A DNA stretch of 42,138 nucleotides from a virus (Duplodnaviria; Heunggongvirae; Uroviricota; Caudoviricetes). The stretch lies in IMG/VR virus record IMGVR_UViG_2737471818_000002, positions 1 to 42,138 of that record, one strand, 5' to 3'. Positions 8,547 through 36,159 of this stretch are shown one piece after another; position 1 is the stretch's first letter; the number at the start of each line of letters is the position of its first letter. The position numbers were made by a program, and so were the translations under genes. The notes beneath the pieces were generated by a model. That model was not told where the DNA came from. It made no database searches and saw only the letters and a program-made list of their open reading frames with translations.

Positions 8547-10664
8547 CTATTCATATTCATTCATACCGCTTAACGAGGCGACAATACCAGCTCTCGACAA
8601 GCGATTGAATTCATCGCTACCAATAGCATCGCGTATTGCTTTTACGGCGGCTTTATTTGCCATAAATCTGCGTTCCGCCGCCGCTAATGCTTCTTTACTT
8701 CCGCCAGCTCTTACTGCTTTCGTGGCTTCCTGAACTGCTTTCTCTATCGCATATCGGCCGCTACGCGTGGTGGCAATTTTAGATACAGCACCTTTTAACC
8801 CGGCGCCAACTAAAGCACCTGCGGCAGCGCCTGCAATGCCCCCTCCTGCTCCACCAACAATGGCACCTGATGTTGAGTTGGCAATTGCATTTAACACTGT
8901 TGATGTGACGTTGGATAAACCGGCATCCAGATCGCGTAGTACATTGGCAGTTCTCCCTGTTCTTTCAATATACTGCTGAGGTTTCACTGCTGCTCTTGCA
9001 AGAGTGCCATATGCATCAGCAATTCTTCCGAGTTCTGAGGAATATCTGCTAATGGCTTTTACATTTTGTGGGGTAAGTATCCCTGCGATATGGTTAATTC
9101 CTGCTGCATCAGCTTTGCCACCACGTACACCATGCGAGATAGCATCTTGCAACATTGATGATATAGCAGGAACACGCTCTGATTCTGGCAGCGCGCGGAT
9201 CATAGAATGGAACCCAGCAGGACCATTAAGACCTTTAGCTGACGATGATTGAAGGGATTTTACTCCATTCGTAATCAGTGCATCTGTTGCCAAATCACGC
9301 CCGAAAACAGACTCTGCACTCTCTTGTGCTGATAACCTCGCTTTAGACAGATCATTAGCTTTCTGCCAGTCATCAAGAAATCCGCCGTTTTCCGCCATTG
9401 TGCGCATATCATCAGTAATTGCCCGGCGTATTTCCCCTGCTCTCCTTGCCGCATTTGCCTCTCCGCTACGCTTATATTTTTGCTCCGCATCAGCAAATTT
9501 CGCTCTCCATGCTTTCATGCCATCAAATGTTACTCCACCTTGATTGTTTGCCTGAACAAACTGTTTCATTTCAGGAGTAAGCGGTATGCCAGCAGATCGC
9601 TCTGCCTGAATAACGGCATTACCATTTAGCATTCTTGCTTTTTGATTTGGCATTGTTGACCGCACGTCATCCCATGCCGCGCGCTCGGCATCCTTCATCT
9701 GATCAAGATTTTGAAGAATCCTTTGTTTTATAGCCGCACTTTTTTCTGATGCCGTTCCAGATGCGGCCCCAAATTCATCAAGGTTTCGACTTAACTTTGA
9801 TGATATTTCGTTAAATGCTGCCTGATGGGCGTCCTGAACAATTCCTGGTGTTGATGCCAATGCGCCTTCGGCTTGTGCAATTCCACGACTTCCAGATCGC
9901 ATTCCTGGTGTTAATGCGTTTATATCAATTCCAGCAGACTCAGCCGCTTTTGCTACATCTTCGGACACATTAGCGGCCTGACTGGCAATTGACTGACGCC
10001 CAGCACCTGACTTTGCCATCCTGGAAACATCATTAGCAGAATTCAGTGCTGCACCACCAAGAGCCTGTGAAACCCTTGGCGCAATAACGCGCCCGACACC
10101 TGAAAGAACGCCTTGAGCACCAATATTGATACCACCGTTAATGGCAGCATTTTGTGCAAAGTCGCCATCCTGATTTGCAGCATCAGCAAGAGAACCTGCA
10201 ATCATGTTTCCTGCGGAACCGATATCTCCAGCGAGTTTTGCTGGCGCTCCAGCAGCTTTTGCCGCTGTGCCAATTGGCAGGAGATACCCACCAATTGTTT
10301 CACCGGCTTGCGCATAAGGGTCTGTCGGTCGATCGACTGGACGATAGACATCATCCAAAACCTTTGGGCCACCAAGCCCCTGGCTGATTGCATTAATCAG
10401 ACTTGCGCCACCCTGCAATACGTCAAATGGTATGTTTACCAGACCACGACCAGCCTGTTCTGCAATTTGCCCTGCGCTTTGACCACCAGTGAGCCAGTCA
10501 GTGGCTTTTCCTACCAGAGATTGTTCTTCTGGCTGCGATTGGTTTTGAGTGGATTGATCACCAGAAGACAGCATCTGAGCAATGCGACGTGCTCCTTCTG
10601 TATCGCCTGCCGCATCAGCGTTCCTTAATGCTGTCATCAACTGTTCACGACTATAGGCCATCAC
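8547..10664 (-). CDS. Internal virion/DNA-ejection protein (P22 gp16-like)
   Basis: 705-aa Ala/Gly-rich protein in the conserved P22 order position after the gp20-like gene. Confidence 0.55.
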
Positions 10665-29486: not shown

Positions 29487-29565
29487 CATGACTTCCCTCT
29501 CCCCCAAATAAAAAGGCCTGCGATTACCAGCAGGCCTGTTATTAGCTCAGTGATGTAGATGGTCA

Positions 29566-31017
29566 TCAGAATCCTCCTTTCTTCTTGGATTGCGGTTCCT
29601 CGCGTTCACGGCGGCGCATTTCAGCAGACTGTTGGTCTGTGTCATAAATAGCGCCATTTGCCTGAATGCAATACACCGTGCCGGTATTGCCATGACGGTT
29701 GAGACGAAGGATTAGTTCGGTTTCACCAGGTGGAACACTGTCATCAAAAGCACCTTCCCGATGGATCCCCACCCAATAATCGCAATCCTGTTCAATCTGC
29801 CCTGTATCGCGCGAGTCACTTGGTAATGGGCGTTTATTGGTTCGGCTTTCCAATGCGCGGTTAAGCTGTGTCAGAAGCACAACAACGCAATCAAGCTCTT
29901 TGGCAAGGTTCTTCAGTCCTTTGGTGATCATGCCGTATGCAAGGTCGTTGCGATCGGCCTTTTCAGCGGTCATTAGCGTCAGGTAATCGACCAGAATCAT
30001 GCCAACGCATCCTTTTTCTCGTTTGATTCGACGGCTTTCGCTGACGATTTGAGCCAGAGATAATCCCGGCGTGTCGTCGATGTAAAGCAGGTCGATTTCA
30101 CTCAAGCGATTGGCTGTTTCGATCGCCCTGTTGAAGTCACCATCGTAATCACCCTGATAGCCGTCATCAGCGTCATTTGTCGCCGGAAGGTAAAAAATAT
30201 TTGGGTTAACACCTGACTTCTGCCCTACCAGTTTTTCCAGTATCTGGTCACCTGGCATTTCAAGGCTGAACATCAGAGCGGGCTTTTTCTCATGCACTGC
30301 GCAGTTGATTGCCATCTGGCTGTATAGCGTCGTTTTCCCCATCTTAGGGCGAGCGCCAATGACAAACAGAGAGCCTTTCACCAGACCTTTCGGTGACAGC
30401 ATCCTGTCCAGCGATGGGATCCCTGTGCTCATTCCTCGTTGTTCGCCTGACGGGTCAAATCGCTTCTCAAGGTCGCTAACCCAGTCTTCCATGACCTCAC
30501 CAAATGAGCGAAGGCCGCGACGCGATCCGGTTTTTGCATGGTCTGTCAGTTGCGTGAAAATCGCCTGAATAGCTTCGTACTTCTGCGTCGCAGTCATTCC
30601 GTTGCGGGAATAGAGCAATTCCGTCGCTTCAGTCATGCGGTTGATGGCGTAGCGTTCCATTGCGGTTTCACGAACCTGCATTGCATAGGCAACGATGTTT
30701 GCTGCGCTTGGCGTGTTCTTTGCGATCTCAGCGATATAAGCAAAACCGCCAACAGACACCGTTAACGATTTGCGCTCCAGTTCATCGAAAAGCGTCAGGC
30801 CATCTACTGGCTTTTGCTCCCGGTGCATTCTGGTTATTTCTTCGAAAAGGATTTTGTGTGGTCGGCTGTAAAATGAATCGGGCTTCAGCATCGCCAGAAC
30901 TTTCTGGACGCGCTCACTGCTGTCATCATCCAGAAGCAATCCACCAATCACCGCCTGCTCTGCCTCGATGCTATGGGGCGGCGCATAAAAATTATCGGTC
31001 ATCGTGTTCACCCTCAC
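29566..31017 (-). CDS. Replicative DNA helicase, DnaB-like (P22 gene 12 type)
   Basis: 483-aa ORF; Walker A (GARPKMGKTT) and DnaB-family architecture; follows the initiator gene. Confidence 0.9.
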   Translation of the reverse strand: MRVNTMTDNFYAPPHSIEAEQAVIGGLLLDDDSSERVQKVLAMLKPDSFYSRPHKILFEEITRMHREQKPVDGLTLFDELERKSLTVSVGGFAYIAEIAKNTPSAANIVAYAMQVRETAMERYAINRMTEATELLYSRNGMTATQKYEAIQAIFTQLTDHAKTGSRRGLRSFGEVMEDWVSDLEKRFDPSGEQRGMSTGIPSLDRMLSPKGLVKGSLFVIGARPKMGKTTLYSQMAINCAVHEKKPALMFSLEMPGDQILEKLVGQKSGVNPNIFYLPATNDADDGYQGDYDGDFNRAIETANRLSEIDLLYIDDTPGLSLAQIVSESRRIKREKGCVGMILVDYLTLMTAEKADRNDLAYGMITKGLKNLAKELDCVVVLLTQLNRALESRTNKRPLPSDSRDTGQIEQDCDYWVGIHREGAFDDSVPPGETELILRLNRHGNTGTVYCIQANGAIYDTDQQSAEMRRREREEPQSKKKGGF

Positions 31018-31882
31018 GAACTTTCAGGTAGGTATTATCGTTAAGCAGGAAATCAAATCCCTTTTTGTGCCAGACGGTTCCGCGTTGATGGTTTGGACGC
31101 TCTTCGAACATCCATCGGCAATTTTCGCCTACGTAGCTCAAATAATTTCTCCAGTCCTGCATCGTGAACCCATGCCCGTCAAGCTGGCGGGTTATCACTC
31201 CGGCTTTGCGCCAGAACGTTCGGATCTGGTTTTTACGCTTGTCATTCAGTGCGCGGATTTTTGGCGCTTCAGGAAGGATTTCGTGGTAAGCATCGACAAC
31301 ATCCTGACAGCTAACGGAAGGTTTTTTCTTGTCAGACTTTTTGTCTGCTGCGGTACTCTCTAATACGTCAGTATTAGAGATATTATTTATATTATTGTTT
31401 ATGGACAACCGTTGGACAACCGTTGGACAATCTCCGCTGAGAGGCGCGCCATTACTGGTGTTTGCGTTGGACAACCGTTGGACAACTGTTGGACAATTTT
31501 TTGCCTGAAAATCGTCATATTTAACGATTGTAAACAGGCTAAATTTCTTCCCCATCGAGCAAATATTAAGCATCCCTTTCGACTCAAAAGTCCGTAATAA
31601 GCTCCGAACTTTGTTGTCTGGGATGAATGTTTCTCTGACCAGCGACGGGCGTCCAGTTATCATCTGACCGCGATCAACAGTTATCGGACCGATATCCGTA
31701 TTGACGACAGTAGATTCGTGATTAGCCTTGAGGATTAAGTGAAGCCAAAGATGTACTGCCTGAGAGTCCTTATAGAGCCTGCTGTCCATAAACTGGCGGT
31801 GTATAGAGACATACCCCATACTGGATGCCTCCTGATGTTGTACAGGGTTATGCCTGTAATCAGCTAACTTAACGACGCCCAT
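30992..31882 (-). CDS. Replication initiator protein (lambda O / P22 gene 18 analogue) containing ori iterons
   Basis: 296-aa ORF with AGGAG RBS; internal direct repeats encode CPTVVQRLS repeats; position between cII and helicase. Confidence 0.75.
   Translation of the reverse strand: MGVVKLADYRHNPVQHQEASSMGYVSIHRQFMDSRLYKDSQAVHLWLHLILKANHESTVVNTDIGPITVDRGQMITGRPSLVRETFIPDNKVRSLLRTFESKGMLNICSMGKKFSLFTIVKYDDFQAKNCPTVVQRLSNANTSNGAPLSGDCPTVVQRLSINNNINNISNTDVLESTAADKKSDKKKPSVSCQDVVDAYHEILPEAPKIRALNDKRKNQIRTFWRKAGVITRQLDGHGFTMQDWRNYLSYVGENCRWMFEERPNHQRGTVWHKKGFDFLLNDNTYLKVREGEHDDR
31370..31496. repeat. Origin of replication: six 11-bp iterons (GTTGGACAACC-like) in two clusters, next to an AT-rich tract
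   Basis: GGACAACCGTTGGACAACCGTTGGACAA (31403-31430) and GTTGGACAACCGTTGGACAACTGTTGGACAA (31466-31496) inside the initiator gene; AT-rich 31370-31402. Confidence 0.65.
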
Positions 31883-32030
31883 GTTTCACTCCTGCTTTGG
31901 CTAGTCTGTAAACACCAACAAGGCGCTCTGCGAACGCCCTGTTATTTGCTGCGGCTACCACTAATCCCTCAGGTGAATCAGGGTGTCGAATCTCTTCTTT
32001 TTCCTGGTATTTCTTACGACGTTTTGTCAT
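31868..32030 (-). CDS. Hypothetical small basic protein between cII and the initiator gene
   Basis: 54-aa ORF (MTKRRKKYQEKEEIRHPDSPEG...) with AGGAG RBS 5 nt upstream; its end overlaps the initiator start. Confidence 0.35.
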
Positions 32031-32064
32031 AATTACTCCTGTGGATTGATCCAGTCTTTCTACA

Positions 32065-32343
32065 TCAGGCCTCGAAGAATTCGCCGTTCTTCGGGGCTTT
32101 TTCTTTTGTCAGCATTCTGGCTACTTTCTTAGCCAGTTCAGCCAACTCCTCGTCTTCAACACCCCATTCAAGAACAGCCAGAAGCATGGCCATCTTTGGG
32201 ATAAAGCTGTCTTTCCATCGCGAAATTTGCGATTCATTGATCCCTAATGCATCAGCAACCTTTCGCTGACCACGTACAGCAATTCGATTCAGGATGTTGC
32301 TTGTAATTGCATTCGCTTTCTTGCGACTACTTGTAAGTTCCAT
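32065..32343 (-). CDS. cII: CII / P22 C1-type transcriptional activator
   Basis: 92 aa from the Met at 32343 (AAGGA RBS); motif GINESQISRWK...IPKMAMLLAVLEWGV matches recalled lambda CII; the longer 32430 start would span the nutR site. Confidence 0.8.
   Translation of the reverse strand: MELTSSRKKANAITSNILNRIAVRGQRKVADALGINESQISRWKDSFIPKMAMLLAVLEWGVEDEELAELAKKVARMLTKEKAPKNGEFFEA
32297..32310 (+). promoter_or_regulatory. Candidate CII-binding site of a PRE-type promoter
   Basis: TTGC-N6-TTGC (TTGCTTGTAATTGC) antisense within the 5' part of cII; neighbouring sequence CCATATGTAAGTATTTCCTTA matches the lambda cII start region as recalled. Confidence 0.4.
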
Positions 32344-32401
32344 ATGTAAGTATTTCCTTAACAAATAATAAGTTATGCGCATCAACTTATGCGCGTTGTA
32401 T

Positions 32402-32444
32402 TCCCGCATTTCGGCGGGAATGAGGACCATGACTGTTAAAGAGC
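32402..32444 (-). promoter_or_regulatory. nutR: boxA (GCTCTTTAACA) and boxB hairpin (UCCCGCCGAAAUGCGGGA) on the rightward transcript
   Basis: BoxA consensus-like sequence after the cro stop, followed by a 6-bp stem / 6-nt loop hairpin identical to the one downstream of PL. Confidence 0.5.
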
Positions 32445-32451
32445 AATTTGC

Positions 32452-32637
32452 TTATGCCGCTTTGCGGTAAGCGCTTTCTTGATACTTCAGGGCGCCAGCT
32501 GTAACGACTTCCAGTCGATAGGCGTCTTTCTCTGGGATGACTTCCTTCCACTGAGAGACTGCTGCGTCGCTAATGCCTAACGCTTTAGCTACAGCACGCT
32601 GGGTTCCGAAGTGGTCGATAACATCTTTCTTGTACAT
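32452..32637 (-). CDS. cro: Cro repressor, P22 type
   Basis: 61-aa ORF near-identical to recalled P22 Cro (MYKKDVIDHFGTQRAVAKALGISDAAVSQWKEVIPEKDAYRLE). Confidence 0.9.
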   Translation of the reverse strand: MYKKDVIDHFGTQRAVAKALGISDAAVSQWKEVIPEKDAYRLEVVTAGALKYQESAYRKAA

Positions 32638-32651
32638 AGACTCGCTCCGAA

Positions 32652-32717
32652 ATTAAAGAACACTTAAATTATCCACTAAAGGAATCTTAAGTCAAGTTTA
32701 TTTAAGATGTCTTAACT
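32652..32717. promoter_or_regulatory. Right operator region: three 18-bp P22-type operators with divergent PR (for cro) and PRM (for c2)
   Basis: Sites at 32652-32669, 32675-32692 and 32700-32717 each fit AnTnAAGnnnnCTTnAnT; PR on minus strand with TTGACT (32690-32695), 17-bp spacer, ATAATT (32667-32672). Confidence 0.6.
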
Positions 32718-33368
32718 ATGAAAACTCAATTGATGGGAGAGCGCATTCGCGCTCGGAGAAAAGAACTCAAGATCAGGCAGGCCGCACTTGGAAAGATGGT
32801 CGGCGTGTCTAATGTTGCCATATCTCAGTGGGAACGCTCTGAGACAGAGCCAAATGGAGAGAATCTTCTCGCCCTGGCTAATGCGTTGAAGTGTTCCCCT
32901 GACTATCTGATGAAAGGAGAGGAAAGTCTTTCAAACATTGCCTATCACAGTAGGCATGATCCAAGAGGGTCATTCCCTCTGATTAGCTGGGTGAGCGCAG
33001 GATGCTGGATGGAAGCTGTAGAACCATATCATAAGCGTGCAATAGATAACTGGTACGATACAACCGTAGATTGTTCAGAAGATTCGTTTTGGCTGGACGT
33101 AAAGGGTGATTCGATGACGGCTCCAGCCGGTCTTAGCATCCCTGAAGGAATGATAATACTCGTCGATCCTGAAGTAGAGCCGCGTAACGGGAAACTGGTA
33201 GTTGCAAAGCTCGAAGGAGAAAACGAGGCAACTTTCAAGAAGTTAGTTATTGATGCAGGCAGGAAGTTTCTAAAACCACTTAACCCACAATATCCGATGA
33301 TCGAGATCAACGGAAACTGCAAAATCATCGGCGTAGTTGTCGATGCAAAACTAGCAAACCTTCCATAA
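32718..33368 (+). CDS. c2: C2 (CI-type) prophage repressor with LexA-like autocleavage domain, P22 immunity
   Basis: 216-aa ORF highly similar to recalled P22 C2; N-terminal HTH and C-terminal S24 peptidase region (GDSM...K). Confidence 0.95.
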   Translation: MKTQLMGERIRARRKELKIRQAALGKMVGVSNVAISQWERSETEPNGENLLALANALKCSPDYLMKGEESLSNIAYHSRHDPRGSFPLISWVSAGCWMEAVEPYHKRAIDNWYDTTVDCSEDSFWLDVKGDSMTAPAGLSIPEGMIILVDPEVEPRNGKLVVAKLEGENEATFKKLVIDAGRKFLKPLNPQYPMIEINGNCKIIGVVVDAKLANLP

Positions 33369-33391
33369 GGGGGCATTCGCCCCTTTTTTTT
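33369..33391 (+). terminator. Intrinsic terminator after the repressor gene
   Basis: GGGGC-ATTC-GCCCC hairpin followed by eight T immediately after the c2 stop. Confidence 0.6.
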
Positions 33392-33434
33392 ATTTCCTTT
33401 AAAAATCAAAGCCAAACTTAAGTTACGAAAGAAA

Positions 33435-33488
33435 ATTTAAGTTTTCTTCAAAAATACTCTTGACCATTAATTAAAGAGATCTTAAATT
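33435..33488 (+). promoter_or_regulatory. PL promoter with overlapping OL operators
   Basis: TTGACC (33460-33465), 17-bp spacer, TAAATT (33483-33488); operator-consensus sites at 33470-33487 and 33435-33452. Confidence 0.5.
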
Positions 33489-33534
33489 TAAGCCATCAGC
33501 AGGACGCTGGAAGCCAAACGGAACAGATTGGCAG

Positions 33535-33575
33535 GCTCTTTAACATTGATGGGATTGTCCCGCCGAAATGCGGGA
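33535..33575 (+). promoter_or_regulatory. nutL: boxA (GCTCTTTAACA) and boxB hairpin identical to nutR
   Basis: BoxA at 33535-33545 and TCCCGCCGAAATGCGGGA at 33558-33575 downstream of PL; same two elements occur in transcript sense at nutR. Confidence 0.5.
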
Positions 33576-33888
33576 ACCAAAGAGTAGTTGGCTTTGGGGT
33601 GGCGTGAAGTGCAGCTGCACGACGGCAACCGGAAGATAAGCACCCGGCGCGTCACCGCCAAAGTCAATTCCATAGGCGTTATGCAGCCGCCACCATATTC
33701 AAGAAAGCTGCACAAGAGGTAGGAGGATTTATGTGAATACTTACATTCAATTGAGAGATTAATTAAATAGAACTGATCGAGCAGAGTCCATAAAGGCTCA
33801 TAAATGCTCTTCCATCCCCGTCTAATTGGCGGGGAAGGAAACCACTTTGTAATAAAAAAATTCCAAAGTTGTTTCATCGGAGGTCAAC

Positions 33889-34188
33889 ATGACAGTAGTC
33901 ATTACATATCTGGCTGACGATAACGCCAGAAATCGCCGCAGAGCACGCAGACAGGCTCAACGTGAACAGGCAATGCAAGAGCAGCGACTGGCGCGAAAGA
34001 TTGCGCTAAAGCTCTCTGGTTGCGTCAGAGCAGATAAAGCAGCATCACTCGGAAGCCTTCGCTGCAAGAAGGCAGAAGAAGTCGAGCGTAAACAGAACCG
34101 TATTTACTACCGCAAGCCACGCAGTGAAATGGGTGTGACTTGTGTTGGTCGCCAGAAAATGAAATTAGGCAGCAAACCACTTATTTGA
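33889..34188 (+). CDS. N: Antitermination protein N
   Basis: 99-aa ORF with GGAGGT RBS; N-terminal arginine-rich motif (NARNRRRARRQAQREQA); C-terminus YYRKPRSEMGVTCVGRQKMKLGSKPLI resembles recalled lambda N. Confidence 0.75.
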   Translation: MTVVITYLADDNARNRRRARRQAQREQAMQEQRLARKIALKLSGCVRADKAASLGSLRCKKAEEVERKQNRIYYRKPRSEMGVTCVGRQKMKLGSKPLI

Positions 34189-34198
34189 GGGGTGAATT

Positions 34199-34513
34199 AT
34201 GGCGTCGAACGGAATTAGCTTTAAAGACAATAATCTTTTAAGTCTCCGAGTTGATGAGATAATTTCCATTGTTACAACCTTTCCGACAAAAAAGGAAGCG
34301 TTAAAAGCTGGTTCTAAATATGGATGGTCATCAGCTTTCCTTATAGAGCGTAGATTTGAAAAGGTTTGGTTGGTGGGGAAAAAGGATTTCCAAAACGACC
34401 ATATCGGGAATGTGGAGTTCGAAGTATTCCGCATTCCATTGTTGAGATGGGAAAAGACTGCTGGAATTACACACTGCCCAATTATTTCAGTGCGCAGATA
34501 TAAAGCCGCATAG
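34199..34513 (+). CDS. Hypothetical protein A of AT-rich early-left accessory module
   Basis: 104-aa ORF with GAGGGG RBS, 10 bp after the N stop; about 40% GC by eye; no recognisable motif. Confidence 0.5.
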   Translation: MASNGISFKDNNLLSLRVDEIISIVTTFPTKKEALKAGSKYGWSSAFLIERRFEKVWLVGKKDFQNDHIGNVEFEVFRIPLLRWEKTAGITHCPIISVRRYKAA

Positions 34514-34576
34514 TCGGCCTTTATTTTTGGCATAAACAAGAGAATAAACACTGCACTTAATTATTTGAGGTTAGAT

Positions 34577-35047
34577 ATGACAAAATCATGGAGCGTACCT
34601 TTTCCTGAATCAGAAACTGAACATGAGGGAATGCCTGTTTTCTGGAGATTCCAGGCGACAGTTGAAGAAGATGGAATCAAAATATTCGCACTTCAATATA
34701 TAGCTTTTCATCAGACAGAGCATTATGCATGGTTGGTTCCTGCGCATTGGATTGTTGATTTTAAACCAGCACCAAATCAGTGGTTACAGGAATGGAAACA
34801 AAAGAGAAATAGATATGCAATTAAGAAAGTAGCAAAAAATGCAGAAAGATCTTTTGCATTCCCAACGAAGAAACTTGCCATTGAGAGTTTATTGCGCCGG
34901 AAGAAATACCATTTAATGAGAATCAAACAAGATTTGGCTGTTGTATCAACTCTTGTTGATGGGATGAAGAATATTGATACATCAACACCAGATATTGAAT
35001 ATAACTTTGGGCACAACCAAGAAACAGAAAATTGGGTATTTTATTAG
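34577..35047 (+). CDS. Hypothetical protein B of AT-rich early-left accessory module
   Basis: 156-aa ORF from ATG at 34577 with GAGG RBS; AT-rich; Trp/His-rich N-terminal half and basic central segment; no recognisable motif. Confidence 0.5.
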   Translation: MTKSWSVPFPESETEHEGMPVFWRFQATVEEDGIKIFALQYIAFHQTEHYAWLVPAHWIVDFKPAPNQWLQEWKQKRNRYAIKKVAKNAERSFAFPTKKLAIESLLRRKKYHLMRIKQDLAVVSTLVDGMKNIDTSTPDIEYNFGHNQETENWVFY

Positions 35048-35152
35048 TACGAGTAAGCACTATGTATTCATTCCAACGAGTGAATACACGGAGCAATGTC
35101 GCTCGTAACTAAACAGGAGCCGACTTGTTCTGATTATTGGAAATCTTCTTTG

Positions 35153-35178
35153 CCCTCCGATGTGAGGGCAATTTTTTT
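35153..35178 (+). terminator. Intrinsic terminator after the AT-rich accessory module
   Basis: GCCCTC-CGATGT-GAGGGC hairpin followed by seven T, ending 13 bp before the next start codon. Confidence 0.55.
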
Positions 35179-35190
35179 GACGGAGGATAT

Positions 35191-36159
35191 ATGAGTGAAG
35201 TAACAGATTTAGTTGTTATTGAAAAAGCAAATGCAATGACTGTATTTCAGTCTGCCGACCAGATTGAAGAAATCCTTCAAAAGGTTGAACGTGAAGTTAT
35301 GTCCTTTGTGCCTGATATCACAACGGCAAAGGGCAGAAAGGAGATCGCTTCTCTGGCGTATAAAGTTGCGCAGACGAAAACATATCTCGATGGTCTTGGC
35401 AAAGACCTTGTTGCTGAACTGAAGGAAATTCCAAAGCTAATTGATGCCAACCGCAAGACAGTGCGCGATCGCCTTGATGAACTGAAAGCCAAGGCGCGCC
35501 AGCCTCTTACTGATTATGAGGAAGAACAGGCGCGGATTAAAGCCGAAGAAGAAGCTAAGGCAGCAGCTGAAGCTCTCGCAAAGCAAATTGAGTCTGACCA
35601 TGAAATAGCGATTTTGATGGATCGCGAATTTGACCGCCAAAGAGAAGAGGCAAGACTCAAAGCGGAGCAGGAAAAGCGAGAGCATGAAGAACGCTTAAAA
35701 AGAGAAGCTGAAGAGAAAGCCAGAGCTGAAGCCGAAGCAAAGACAAAAGCCGAAATTGAAGCAGCAGCAAGGCGAGAAGCAGAAGCTAAGGCCGCAGCGG
35801 AACGTGCAGAGCGTGAACGCATTGAAGCCGAGCAACGAGCACAGCGCGAAGCAAAAGAGGCAGCAGAACGAGCTGAAAGAGAAAAGCAGGCGGCAATTGA
35901 AGCAGAACGCCGAAAAGCACAGGAGGAGGCTGAACGAATCAGGCGCGAGGCTGAAGCAAAAGAGCAAGCCAGAATAGCAGAAGAAAAAAGAATCAAGGAA
36001 GAAGAAGAGCGTAGAGCAAAGGATAAAGCTCACCGGAAAGAAGTAAATAACAAAATACTTGCTGACCTTATCAAGGTTGGCGCATCAGAAGATGTTGCTA
36101 AAAATATCATAACAGCCATCGTAAAAGGCGAAGTATTCGCAACAAAAATAACCTACTAA
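35191..36159 (+). CDS. Hypothetical coiled-coil protein with Ala/Glu/Lys/Arg-rich repetitive central region
   Basis: 322 aa from ATG at 35191 with GGAGGA RBS; about 200 aa of repetitive charged coiled coil; ordered N- and C-terminal regions. Confidence 0.5.
   Translation: MSEVTDLVVIEKANAMTVFQSADQIEEILQKVEREVMSFVPDITTAKGRKEIASLAYKVAQTKTYLDGLGKDLVAELKEIPKLIDANRKTVRDRLDELKAKARQPLTDYEEEQARIKAEEEAKAAAEALAKQIESDHEIAILMDREFDRQREEARLKAEQEKREHEERLKREAEEKARAEAEAKTKAEIEAAARREAEAKAAAERAERERIEAEQRAQREAKEAAERAEREKQAAIEAERRKAQEEAERIRREAEAKEQARIAEEKRIKEEEERRAKDKAHRKEVNNKILADLIKVGASEDVAKNIITAIVKGEVFATKITY

What the first reader, a model, noticed from the sequence alone, without database searches (positions are those of the whole stretch)
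32402..33575. Identical boxA and boxB elements on both sides of the immunity region define the nut sites
The sequence GCTCTTTAACA followed by the hairpin TCCCGCCGAAATGCGGGA occurs in transcript sense both downstream of PL (33535-33575, plus strand) and downstream of cro (32402-32444, minus strand). An exact 18-nt hairpin repeat in this arrangement is very unlikely by chance and matches N-utilisation site organisation. The boxB is a 6-bp stem with a 6-nt loop, which differs from the 5-bp/5-nt lambda and P22 boxB forms I recall, and may indicate a distinct N specificity.
Basis: seen in the sequence. Interest (0 to 1): 0.35.

Follow-up and report, generated by a model that had tools for sequence, protein, structure and literature searches.

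The report
HK620-type nutL and nutR antitermination sites
The two identical boxA-plus-hairpin elements are the N-utilisation (nut) sites of a P22-like E. coli prophage, base-for-base the same as the putative nut sites already annotated in phage HK620, so the reading is correct but ordinary.

Summary
GCTCTTTAACA followed by the hairpin TCCCGC-CGAAAT-GCGGGA occurs exactly twice. One copy lies about 40 nt downstream of PL (33535-33575, +). The other starts 7 nt after the cro stop codon (32402-32444, -). Both are in transcript sense.

The interpretation as nutL and nutR holds. These sites are identical to the "putative N-utilization" features in the phage HK620 GenBank record (AF335538).

The N gene downstream (33889-34188) is a mosaic. 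Residues 1-64, including the arginine-rich motif DNARNRRRARRQAQREQ, are HK620-type. Residues 37-99 are phage-21-type.

In about 200 IMG/VR stretches (the two sets overlap), this boxB and this motif always occur together. They do so on either side of at least eight unrelated cI/cro cassettes. Lambda-, P22- and 21-type motifs each keep their own boxB.

The "6-nt loop" is not a new format. It parallels phage 21 boxB (a C·C pair closing UAAC) and P22 nutR (CCGC-C-GACAA-C-GCGG). Here a C·U mismatch would close a plain GAAA tetraloop.

No binding or antitermination data for this pair turned up in the paper library I could search. The pair is common: 291 of 5,426 complete E. coli genomes carry this N. 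Novelty: already known. Interest: low.

The parts
33535..33545 (+). nutL boxA (GCTCTTTAACA), the rrn-consensus type with CUUUA
   Evidence: Exact match. Identical to the boxA of HK620, phage 21 and mEpX1 nutL. The rrn boxA-spacer oligonucleotide is ugcucuuuaacaauuua and lambda boxA is cgcucuua (PMC2724277).
33546..33557 (+). nutL spacer (TTGATGGGATTG, 12 nt)
   Evidence: Read from the sequence. A few single-base variants occur among related loci, while boxA and boxB do not vary.
33558..33575 (+). nutL boxB hairpin: UCCCGC / CGAAAU / GCGGGA
   Evidence: Identical in HK620 nutL (record positions 7753-7794), HK630, CUS-3 and all N-anchored IMG/VR loci that retain this region.
32434..32444 (-). 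nutR boxA (GCTCTTTAACA), starting 7 nt after the cro stop codon
   Evidence: Sequence conservation among loci drops immediately upstream of it, so it sits at a mosaic joint.
32400..32421 (-). nutR boxB hairpin: the 18-mer at 32402-32419, with the stem extended to 8 bp (AUUCCCGC / CGAAAU / GCGGGAAU)
   Evidence: Identical to the annotated HK620 nutR (record positions 9423-9468).
33889..34188 (+). N antiterminator gene (99 aa; GGAGG ribosome-binding site at 33879-33883). The arginine-rich motif is about residues 11-27, DNARNRRRARRQAQREQ.
   Evidence: ORF list and sequence. Residues 1-64 are 98-100% identical to N of HK620, HK630 and mEp213. Residues 37-99 are 97% identical to phage 21 N. Residues 62-99 align to lambda N residues 74-110 in PDB 6GOV, E = 2.5e-4. 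Pfam N_peptide scores 20.2 bits, below its cut-off of 27.9.
33460..33488 (+). PL-like promoter (TTGACC, 17-nt spacer, TAAATT). The nutL boxA begins about 40 nt after the predicted start.
   Evidence: Consensus scan. This is the same position as pL in the phage 21 and HK620 annotations.
32668..32695 (-). PR-like promoter (TTGACT, 16-nt spacer, GATAAT) driving cro, then nutR, then cII
   Evidence: Consensus scan, 10 of 12 matches.
32452..32637 (-). cro (61 aa, P22_Cro family)
   Evidence: Pfam PF14549, E = 8.7e-28.
32718..33368 (+). cI/C2-type repressor (HTH_3 plus Peptidase_S24 domains), followed by its terminator at 33367-33386
   Evidence: Pfam. Terminator scan. The window segment containing it is 85% identical to the phage 21 immunity region and 82% to the P22 immunity region.
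32065..32343 (-). cII (92 aa), the first gene downstream of nutR
   Evidence: Pfam Phage_CII covers positions 1-91 of 91, E = 1e-41.
33587..33668 (+). Long basal stem in the nutL-N leader (TTGGCTTTGGGGTGGCG...CGTCACCGCCAAAGTCAA), homologous to the lambda N-leader stem that contains boxC
   Evidence: Folds of the window and of variant loci show compensatory stem variants. The lambda leader folds the same way using GGCTTTGGGGTGTGTG...CACACACCACCAAAGC.
35150..35171 (+). Strong intrinsic-terminator-like hairpin in the PL operon downstream of N (TTGCCCTCCGATGTGAGGGCAA followed by T7), a candidate target of N-modified polymerase
   Evidence: Consensus scans.
29514..29537 (-). Strong intrinsic-terminator-like hairpin in the PR operon just after the helicase gene, at a position like lambda tR2. 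A candidate target of antitermination from nutR.
   Evidence: Consensus scan. The helicase ORF is 29566-31017 on the minus strand.

Best explanation
These are the nutL and nutR sites of a P22-like (Lederbergvirus-type) E. coli prophage, of the HK620 N/nut specificity class.

Proposed mechanism. Transcripts from PL (+ strand) and PR (- strand) each carry an rrn-consensus boxA (GCUCUUUAACA). After a 12-14-nt spacer comes the boxB hairpin UCCCGC-CGAAAU-GCGGGA. The arginine-rich N terminus of N (DNARNRRRARRQAQREQ), encoded just downstream of nutL, binds boxB. NusB and NusE (S10) bind boxA. The C-terminal part of N, which is homologous to that of phage 21 and lambda N, contacts NusA and RNA polymerase. 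The modified polymerase then reads through downstream terminators, for example the hairpins at 35150-35171 (+) and 29537-29514 (-), to express the delayed-early genes.

The loop is best read as a C·U mismatch closing a GAAA tetraloop. That is the same layout as phage 21 boxB, where a C·C pair closes UAAC. It is also P22 nutR boxB without its looped-out C.

What is shown here: the sequences, their positions and orientation, their identity to the annotated HK620 nut sites, the homology of N, and the co-occurrence of motif type with boxB type.

What is inferred: the binding itself, the Nus-factor contacts, the loop geometry, and which terminators are overridden.
For: 1. The repeat is exact and placed in transcript sense behind both early promoters.
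2. Both sites are identical to the nutL and nutR annotated in HK620.
3. N lies downstream of nutL. Its motif keeps the residues that were invariant in the four-N alignment (window, HK620, phage 21 and the lambda-type mEp213 N): A13, R16, R20, R21. Its C terminus aligns with lambda N in the antitermination complex structure 6GOV.
4. Forward co-occurrence: 80 IMG/VR loci were retrieved through N. Every one that retains the region upstream of N has this boxB, with no variants among the hairpins detected (82 nutL-type and 81 nutR-type counts; those counts also include the window, HK620, HK630 and CUS-3).
5. Reverse co-occurrence: 119 stretches were retrieved through the boxB 18-mer. Every boxA-linked site with enough downstream sequence is followed either by an HK620-type N or by cII. 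The N group includes one nonsense allele and one R16S allele. Only one hit (L096) is an unrelated chance match without boxA.
6. The same nut pair brackets at least eight cassette length classes. The nutR-nutL distance ranges from 1152 to 3398 nt, and in the non-window classes only 4-26% of the interval aligns to the window.
7. A natural swap exists. The window and phage 21 share cro, boxA, the PL leader and the C-terminal part of N, but both boxBs and the arginine-rich motif differ together.
8. Lambda-, P22- and 21-type motifs each go with their own boxB in independent phages: HK542 and mEp213, SH2026Stx1, and mEpX1.
9. Terminator-like hairpins lie downstream in both operons.
10. In the phage 21 complex structure, the hexaloop forms a GNRA-like fold flanked by a C-C pair (PMC12550061).
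Against: There is no experimental evidence for this N/boxB pair. The HK620 record itself says "putative", and the paper library gave nothing on it.

boxB is invariant in all related loci, so stem covariation cannot support the hairpin.

Folding energies of the nut contexts are not significantly better than those of shuffled sequences.

Rfam gave no match in the region.

The Pfam N_peptide hit is below its threshold.

The two IMG/VR sets overlap and consist largely of closely related E. coli prophages. The roughly 200 co-occurrences are therefore not independent events. The independent evidence is the number of different cassettes and of different N C-terminal modules.
Confidence: 0.9

Rival explanations
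1. The elements are real nut sites, but the specificity is not distinct. This boxB would be recognised interchangeably by P22-type or lambda-type N proteins, so the different loop format has little functional consequence.
For: The boxB stem and loop start (CCGCC-GA) are the same as in P22 nutR (CCGC-C-GACAA-C-GCGG). The four motif types keep four residues invariant in the alignment, plus P22 by eye. A cited title (Cocozaki et al. 2008) states that P22 boxB requirements overlap with those of lambda (seen in the reference list; the paper itself is not held).
Against: Motif type and boxB type are paired without exception across mosaic backgrounds. When this immunity region and phage 21 are compared, both boxBs and the motif changed together while the flanks stayed. 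If recognition were promiscuous, mixed combinations should be seen, and none were.
Confidence: 0.2
2. The identical 40-nt blocks are mainly conserved recombination joints ("boundary sequences") between mosaic modules. They would be kept by recent common descent and have no RNA function of their own.
For: Conservation among loci breaks exactly at boxA of nutR, and different cro genes abut it. The CUS-3 record labels the cI-N interval, which includes nutL, as "bsq5; boundary sequence". boxA is shared by phage 21, HK620 and the window and lies at the homology switch point.
Against: This does not explain why the non-palindromic loop is in transcript sense at both sites. It does not explain why boxB always travels with one N motif, nor why the layout matches experimentally defined nut sites of lambda, P22 and phage 21. 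Acting as a joint is compatible with being a nut site and is probably an added consequence of it.
Confidence: 0.04
3. The hairpins are DNA-level protein-binding palindromes (operators) or intrinsic terminators.
For: The stem is a perfect 6-bp inverted repeat rich in G+C.
Against: No T-run follows either hairpin (AACCAAAG and ATACAACG), and neither was called by the terminator scan. The operator-like repeats of this immunity region are AT-rich TTAAGT/TTTAAG motifs located at the promoters (phage 21 annotation). The loop orientation follows the direction of transcription.
Confidence: 0.02

Closest known systems
Phage HK620 nutL/nutR and N (GenBank AF335538; same pair in HK630 and CUS-3)
   Same: boxA, spacer and boxB are identical at both sites, and N residues 1-64 are 98% identical. 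This is the same N/nut specificity class.
   Different: The immunity cassette between the sites differs. HK620's cI is noted in its record as similar to those of phages 434 and L, and HK620 also carries hkaS there, whereas the window has a cassette like those of phage 21 and P22. The C terminus of N is P22-like in HK620 and 21-like here. The window has about 205 extra nt (33671-33875) between the leader stem and the N ribosome-binding site.
Phage 21 nut sites and N (OL657228; N peptide-boxB structure PDB 1NYB)
   Same: boxA is identical, spacers are 12 and 14 nt, and cro, the PL leader and the C-terminal two-thirds of N are homologous. boxB also has a 6-nt loop. In the phage 21 complex, two pyrimidines (C·C) flank a GNRA-like tetraloop.
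   Different: The loop is CUAACC in phage 21 and CGAAAU here. The stems are unrelated. The motif is GTAKSRYKARRAELIAERR in phage 21 and DNARNRRRARRQAQREQ here.
Phage P22 nut sites and gp24
   Same: P22 nutR boxB is CCGC-C-GACAA-C-GCGG, with the same stem and a pyrimidine·pyrimidine closure. The protein starts MTVITY..., and HK620 N shares the P22-type C terminus. The immunity region is 82% identical up to the nutL spacer.
   Different: The P22 loop is the pentaloop GACAA, whose C is looped out and contacts the peptide (PMC12550061). Here that base is absent, leaving a plain GAAA. The motif has H21 and E22 and ends RRRKLAIER in P22, against RRRARRQAQRE here.
Phage lambda nutL/nutR and N
   Same: The layout is the same (boxA, spacer, boxB, then a boxC-containing leader stem), and the positions after PL and after cro match. 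The loop is purine-rich and starts GAA. The C terminus of N is homologous.
   Different: Lambda boxA lacks one U (CGCUCUUA). Its boxB is a 5-bp stem with the pentaloop GAAAA or GAAGA closed by U-A. From my own knowledge, lambda N uses Trp18 to stack on the loop; the aligned position here is Ala.

Membership tests
Lambdoid nut site (boxA-spacer-boxB) | boxA matching GCUCUU(U)A upstream of the hairpin | tested here: met
   GCTCTTTAACA at both sites. This equals the rrn-type boxA plus the first spacer bases quoted in PMC2724277.
Lambdoid nut site (boxA-spacer-boxB) | A short spacer followed by a small stem-loop with a purine-rich, GNRA-like loop | tested here: met
   Spacers of 12 and 14 nt. Stems of 6 and 8 bp. 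The loop CGAAAU contains GAAA. The GNRA fold itself is inferred, not tested.
Lambdoid nut site (boxA-spacer-boxB) | One copy promoter-proximal in the PL transcript and one after cro in the PR transcript, both in transcript sense | tested here: met
   Promoter scan and ORF map. Loop orientation.
Lambdoid nut site (boxA-spacer-boxB) | A cognate N gene downstream of nutL whose arginine-rich motif co-varies with boxB among phages | tested here: met
   Four motif classes go with four boxB classes, and no mixed combination was seen.
Lambdoid nut site (boxA-spacer-boxB) | Terminators downstream that need to be overridden | tested here: met
   Consensus-level hairpins followed by T-runs at 35150-35171 (+) and 29537-29514 (-), with further ones at 39738-40110 (+). 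Their function was not tested.
Lambdoid nut site (boxA-spacer-boxB) | N- and Nus-dependent antitermination that requires the site | not testable with these tools
   This needs genetics or biochemistry. No published data on this pair were found.
N antiterminator protein family | An N-terminal arginine-rich motif with the conserved A-x-x-R-x-x-x-R-R pattern | tested here: met
   A13, R16, R20 and R21 are invariant in the alignment with the 21-, HK620- and lambda-type N proteins. P22 fits the pattern by eye.
N antiterminator protein family | A C-terminal region homologous to the polymerase-contacting end of lambda N | tested here: met
   Residues 62-99 align to lambda N residues 74-110 (6GOV chain N), E = 2.5e-4.
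N antiterminator protein family | A match to the curated family profile (Pfam N_peptide PF25694) | tested here: inconclusive
   20.2 bits against a cut-off of 27.9, E = 8.4e-4.

The most novel reading that the evidence does not exclude
The HK620-type pair may be a fourth, functionally orthogonal N-peptide/boxB specificity class. Its boxB would present an unembellished GAAA tetraloop closed by a C·U mismatch, with no looped-out base. It would be read by a motif that lacks the lambda Trp18 and the P22 His21. If the looped-out base of lambda boxB is what engages NusA (this is from my own memory and was not checked here), this class might assemble its complex with a different NusA dependence. It would also offer an extra orthogonal RNA-tethering pair.
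Probability: 0.45. Interest if true: 0.35.

Novelty: already known. Interest (0 to 1): 0.15.

Why it matters
Practically, the result fixes the annotation of this region: nutL, nutR, the N gene, the true cII start and the leader stem. PGAP labels this N "hypothetical protein" in the top E. coli genome matches listed. The CUS-3 record has no nut features and starts cII inside nutR.

Biologically, this is a clean natural example of an arginine-rich motif and both of its RNA targets being exchanged as a set while the repressor cassette between them is swapped freely.

The pair itself is uncharacterised biochemically as far as I could find. It would be an easy addition to the lambda, P22 and phage 21 set used to study peptide-RNA recognition. 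It does not open a new question.

Tried and rejected
- Rfam scan of 31500-35500 at E <= 1: no match in the region.
- Stem covariation for boxB: not possible, because boxB is invariant in all N-anchored loci.
- Thermodynamic significance: the z-scores are not significant, so they were not used as evidence.
- Full-text searches for HK620 with boxB or nutL, for the boxB sequence itself, and for HK620 with antitermination: nothing on this pair.
- Key subscription papers could not be read: Cocozaki 2008 (PMC2446750) and Cilley & Williamson 2003 (PMC1370434). Clark et al. 2001 on HK620 was not located. What I say about them rests on a secondary source, on the GenBank annotation, or on memory, and is marked as such.
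- Intrinsic terminator reading: rejected, because there is no T-run.
- Operator reading: rejected, because the sequence is unlike the AT-rich operator repeats and lies outside the promoter regions.
- The long minus-strand ORF across nutL (33488-33877, 129 aa) and the 121-aa extended cII ORF that starts inside nutR (32430): treated as spurious. Pfam Phage_CII fits the 92-aa form end to end.
- A 37-aa ORF at 33804-33917: rejected as coding, because the conserved nucleotides are read in different frames in the two sequence variants of the module.
Full report
OBSERVATION

The 18-mer TCCCGCCGAAATGCGGGA is present exactly twice in the 42-kb window, at 33558-33575 (+) and 32402-32419 (-). No further copies appear even with three mismatches allowed. 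None of 100 dinucleotide-preserving shuffles gave two matches.

GCTCTTTAACA also occurs twice, at 33535-33545 (+) and 32434-32444 (-). An 11-mer pair at one mismatch is not rare by itself, since 22 of 100 shuffles reached it. Each copy, however, sits 12 or 14 nt upstream of a hairpin copy on the same strand.

The stem is palindromic and the loop is not. The loop reads CGAAAT in the sense of the local transcript at both sites. That is what an RNA signal predicts and what a DNA palindrome does not.

Folding gives a 6-bp stem and a 6-nt loop at the PL-side site. At the cro-side site the stem is 8 bp with the same loop. The energies are not significantly better than those of shuffles, so I do not use them as evidence.

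CONTEXT

| Feature | Coordinates | Evidence |
|---|---|---|
| cro (P22_Cro family) | 32452-32637 (-) | |
| Repressor (HTH + S24 peptidase) | 32718-33368 (+) | |
| cII (full-length Phage_CII, 92 aa) | 32065-32343 (-) | |
| N (99 aa, GGAGG ribosome-binding site) | 33889-34188 (+) | |
| PR-like promoter | 32695-32668 (-) | |
| PL-like promoter | 33460-33488 (+) | |

One site therefore starts about 40 nt into the PL transcript. The other starts 7 nt after the cro stop codon.

Strong hairpin-plus-T-run terminators lie downstream in both directions. They are at 35150-35171 (+), after N, and at 29537-29514 (-), after the helicase gene.

The window as a whole is a mosaic P22-like E. coli phage or prophage. 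Its closest relatives in the phage collection are IME10, CUS-3, N7, Louie and vB_EcoP-683R2.

WHAT IT IS

The GenBank record of phage HK620 (AF335538) annotates "nutL; putative N-utilization leftward" and "nutR; putative N-utilization rightward". Reading those features shows that they match the window's sites base for base from boxA through boxB. HK630 and CUS-3 carry the same sequences. CUS-3 does not annotate them.

Phage 21 has an immunity region 85% identical to this one. It has the same boxA and spacer lengths but different hairpins:
- nutL: UCUCAAC-CUAACC-GUUGAGA
- nutR: CACCU-CUAACC-GGGUG

THE N PROTEIN IS A MOSAIC

- Residues 1-64 are 98-100% identical to the N of HK620, HK630 and mEp213.
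- Residues 37-99 are 97% identical to phage 21 N.
- The motif is DNARNRRRARRQAQREQ, against GTAKSRYKARRAELIAERR in phage 21, GNAKTRRHERRRKLAIER in P22 and DAQTRRRERRAEKQAQW in lambda.
- A13, R16, R20 and R21 were invariant in the alignment of the window, HK620, phage 21 and lambda-type mEp213 N proteins.
- The C terminus aligns with lambda N residues 74-110 in the antitermination-complex structure 6GOV.
- The Pfam N_peptide hit is sub-threshold.

A breakpoint map shows the following:

| Window segment | Content | Closest match |
|---|---|---|
| 32021-32444 | cII to nutR boxA | HK620, 97.6% |
| 32432-33669 | cro, repressor, PL, leader | phage 21, 85.4% |
| 33488-33668 | PL start, nutL, leader stem | HK620, 98.3% |
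| 33874-34080 | N ribosome-binding site and residues 1-64 | HK620, 99.0% |
| 33987-34202 | N residues 33-99 | phage 21, 96.8% |

Relative to phage 21, both boxBs and the arginine-rich motif have been replaced together, while boxA, cro, the leader and the rest of N stayed.

CO-OCCURRENCE TEST

Forward direction. Eighty IMG/VR loci were retrieved through N. All loci that still have the upstream region carry this exact boxB at both sites, with no variant. One exception, L033, is a rearranged remnant whose homology ends at the N ribosome-binding site.

The distance between the two sites falls into several classes: 1152-1157, 1696-1698, 1740, 2009, about 2290, about 2850, 2990 and 3398 nt. In the non-window classes only 4-26% of the interval aligns to the window. 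The same nut pair and N therefore bracket at least eight different immunity cassettes.

Reverse direction. I scanned for the 18-mer alone and obtained 119 stretches. Every boxA-linked occurrence with enough downstream sequence is followed by one of two things. One is an N with the motif core A-(R/K)-N-R-R-R-x-R-R, including one nonsense allele and one R16S allele. The other is cII. Only one hit (L096) is an unrelated chance match without boxA.

Other motif classes. In independent phages each class keeps its own boxB:
- Lambda-type: HK542 and mEp213, with GCCCU-GAAGA-AGGGC.
- P22-type: SH2026Stx1, with GCGCU-GACAA-AGCGC and CCGCC-GACAA-CGCGG.
- 21-type: mEpX1, with CUAACC loops.

Caveat. The two IMG/VR sets overlap and are dominated by related E. 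coli prophages. The meaningful count is the number of distinct genetic backgrounds, not the roughly 200 sites.

MECHANISM

The best-supported model is the standard one:
- boxA RNA is bound by NusB and NusE.
- The spacer is contacted by NusA.
- boxB is bound by the arginine-rich helix of N.
- The rest of N holds NusA and RNA polymerase in a termination-resistant state (background: PMC2724277).

boxA here is the rrn-consensus form with CUUUA, which that paper says enhances antitermination.

For the loop I propose a C·U mismatch closing a GAAA tetraloop. The basis is a structural survey. It reports that in the phage 21 complex (PDB 1NYB) the CUAACC hexaloop forms a GNRA-like UAAC fold flanked by a C-C pair. 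It also reports that in P22 the C of GACAA is looped out and contacts the peptide.

The window's boxB has the stem of P22 nutR and lacks only that looped-out C. This geometry, and any consequence for NusA dependence, is inference.

COMPARISON AND NOVELTY

The inference of a separate specificity is well supported by comparison.

The element is nonetheless already in the public record as the putative HK620 nut sites. The loop format has precedents in phage 21 and P22 nutR.

The pair is also common. The exact mosaic N gene is found at 80% coverage or more in 291 of 5,426 complete E. coli genomes.

I found no experimental work on this pair in the searchable library. The original HK620 paper and two key boxB papers are not held. 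Some characterisation may therefore exist that I could not see.

SIDE OBSERVATIONS

The nutL-N leader is strikingly modular among phages with identical nutL and N. Its length ranges from 108 to 565 nt.
- It has a conserved basal stem with compensatory variants. This stem is the homologue of the lambda N-leader stem that contains boxC.
- The window carries a roughly 205-nt module (33671-33875) that HK620 lacks. The module holds a conserved ribosome-binding site followed directly by ATG-TGA.

mEp213 carries a second, HK620-type N behind a hybrid hairpin. That hairpin was formed by a join between a terminator like the window's 35150 hairpin and boxB, and it has no boxA.

VERDICT

The element is already known and ordinary. 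A modest open point remains: the biochemical specificity of the HK620-type N/boxB pair.

Noticed in passing
window 33576-33888; loci L003, L021, L031, L036, L055, L079, L008, L073: The leader between nutL boxB and the N start codon varies from 108 to 565 nt among phages that share identical nutL and N. There are at least three insertion slots: directly after boxB, in the apical part of the leader stem, and between the stem and the N ribosome-binding site.
   Followed up: partly
window 33587-33668 (+): There is a long basal stem, TTGGCTTTGGGGTGGCG...CGTCACCGCCAAAGTCAA. Other loci carry compensatory variants (ATTGGATG/CATCCAAT and GGTGTGGTG/CACCACACC). Lambda has the same stem (GGCTTTGGGGTGTGTG...CACACACCACCAAAGC), so this is the boxC-containing N-leader stem. 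From memory, that stem is the RNase III site in lambda.
   Followed up: partly
window 33671-33875 (+): A roughly 205-nt module is absent from HK620. It is present in CUS-3, inside the feature labelled 'bsq5', and in HK140 at 72% identity. Both sequence variants keep a strong ribosome-binding site followed by a start-stop pair (AGGAGGATTTATGTGA, 33721-33737). Both also keep a hairpin whose arms differ compensatorily (33816-33834). No conserved reading frame is present, and the function is unknown.
   Followed up: partly
L021 and L031 (IMG/VR), between nutL and N: In place of the window's module, these loci carry a 39-aa hydrophobic ORF (MLDIMTNPILGGLVTTFAICFGFTIWSEVDDWMWERKNK) with its own ribosome-binding site.
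   Followed up: no
L079 (IMG/VR), leader stem: A pentanucleotide repeat (GTCAC)n is expanded many-fold inside the 3' arm of the leader stem. L007 has a one-unit duplication on the 5' arm.
   Followed up: no
L005/L211 (phage mEp213, NC_019720, record positions 30879-31700): mEp213 has two N genes in its PL operon: a lambda-type N with lambda-type nutL and nutR, and 1.1 kb downstream an HK620-type N. Upstream of the second N is a hybrid hairpin, TTTGCCCTCCGAAATGCGGGAAC. It was formed by a join between a terminator like the window's 35150-35171 hairpin and boxB. It has no boxA and a stem mismatch, which makes the second N an orphan.
   Followed up: partly
window 32065-32430 (-); L002 (CUS-3) 1711-2091: The CUS-3 record starts cII at an upstream ATG, so the CDS runs through nutR boxB. 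Pfam Phage_CII fits the 92-aa form (32065-32343) end to end. RefSeq/PGAP labels this N gene 'hypothetical protein' in the top E. coli genome matches listed.
   Followed up: yes
window 32067-32099 (+): A strong terminator-like hairpin (14 pairs followed by a T-run) lies antisense to the 3' end of cII. This is the position where the P22 record annotates the oop terminator, so it is probably an OOP-type antisense RNA.
   Followed up: no
window 33889-34188; L003, L001, L088, L090: N proteins are built from at least three exchangeable modules. The motif module comes in lambda, P22, 21 and HK620 types. The central segment ARKIALKLSGCVRADKAASLG is shared by the 21 and HK620 types. The C terminus is either 21/lambda-like (...GRQKMKLGSKPLI) or P22-like (...YAAGYRKSKQLTAR). 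These modules occur in several combinations.
   Followed up: partly
L188, L033 and L087 (IMG/VR and Stx2c phage): Defective copies exist. L188 has a nonsense codon at N codon 8. In L033 the region upstream of the N ribosome-binding site has been replaced. In the Stx2c phage Stx2_EH1904 the N reading frame diverges and ends early, at about residue 75.
   Followed up: no
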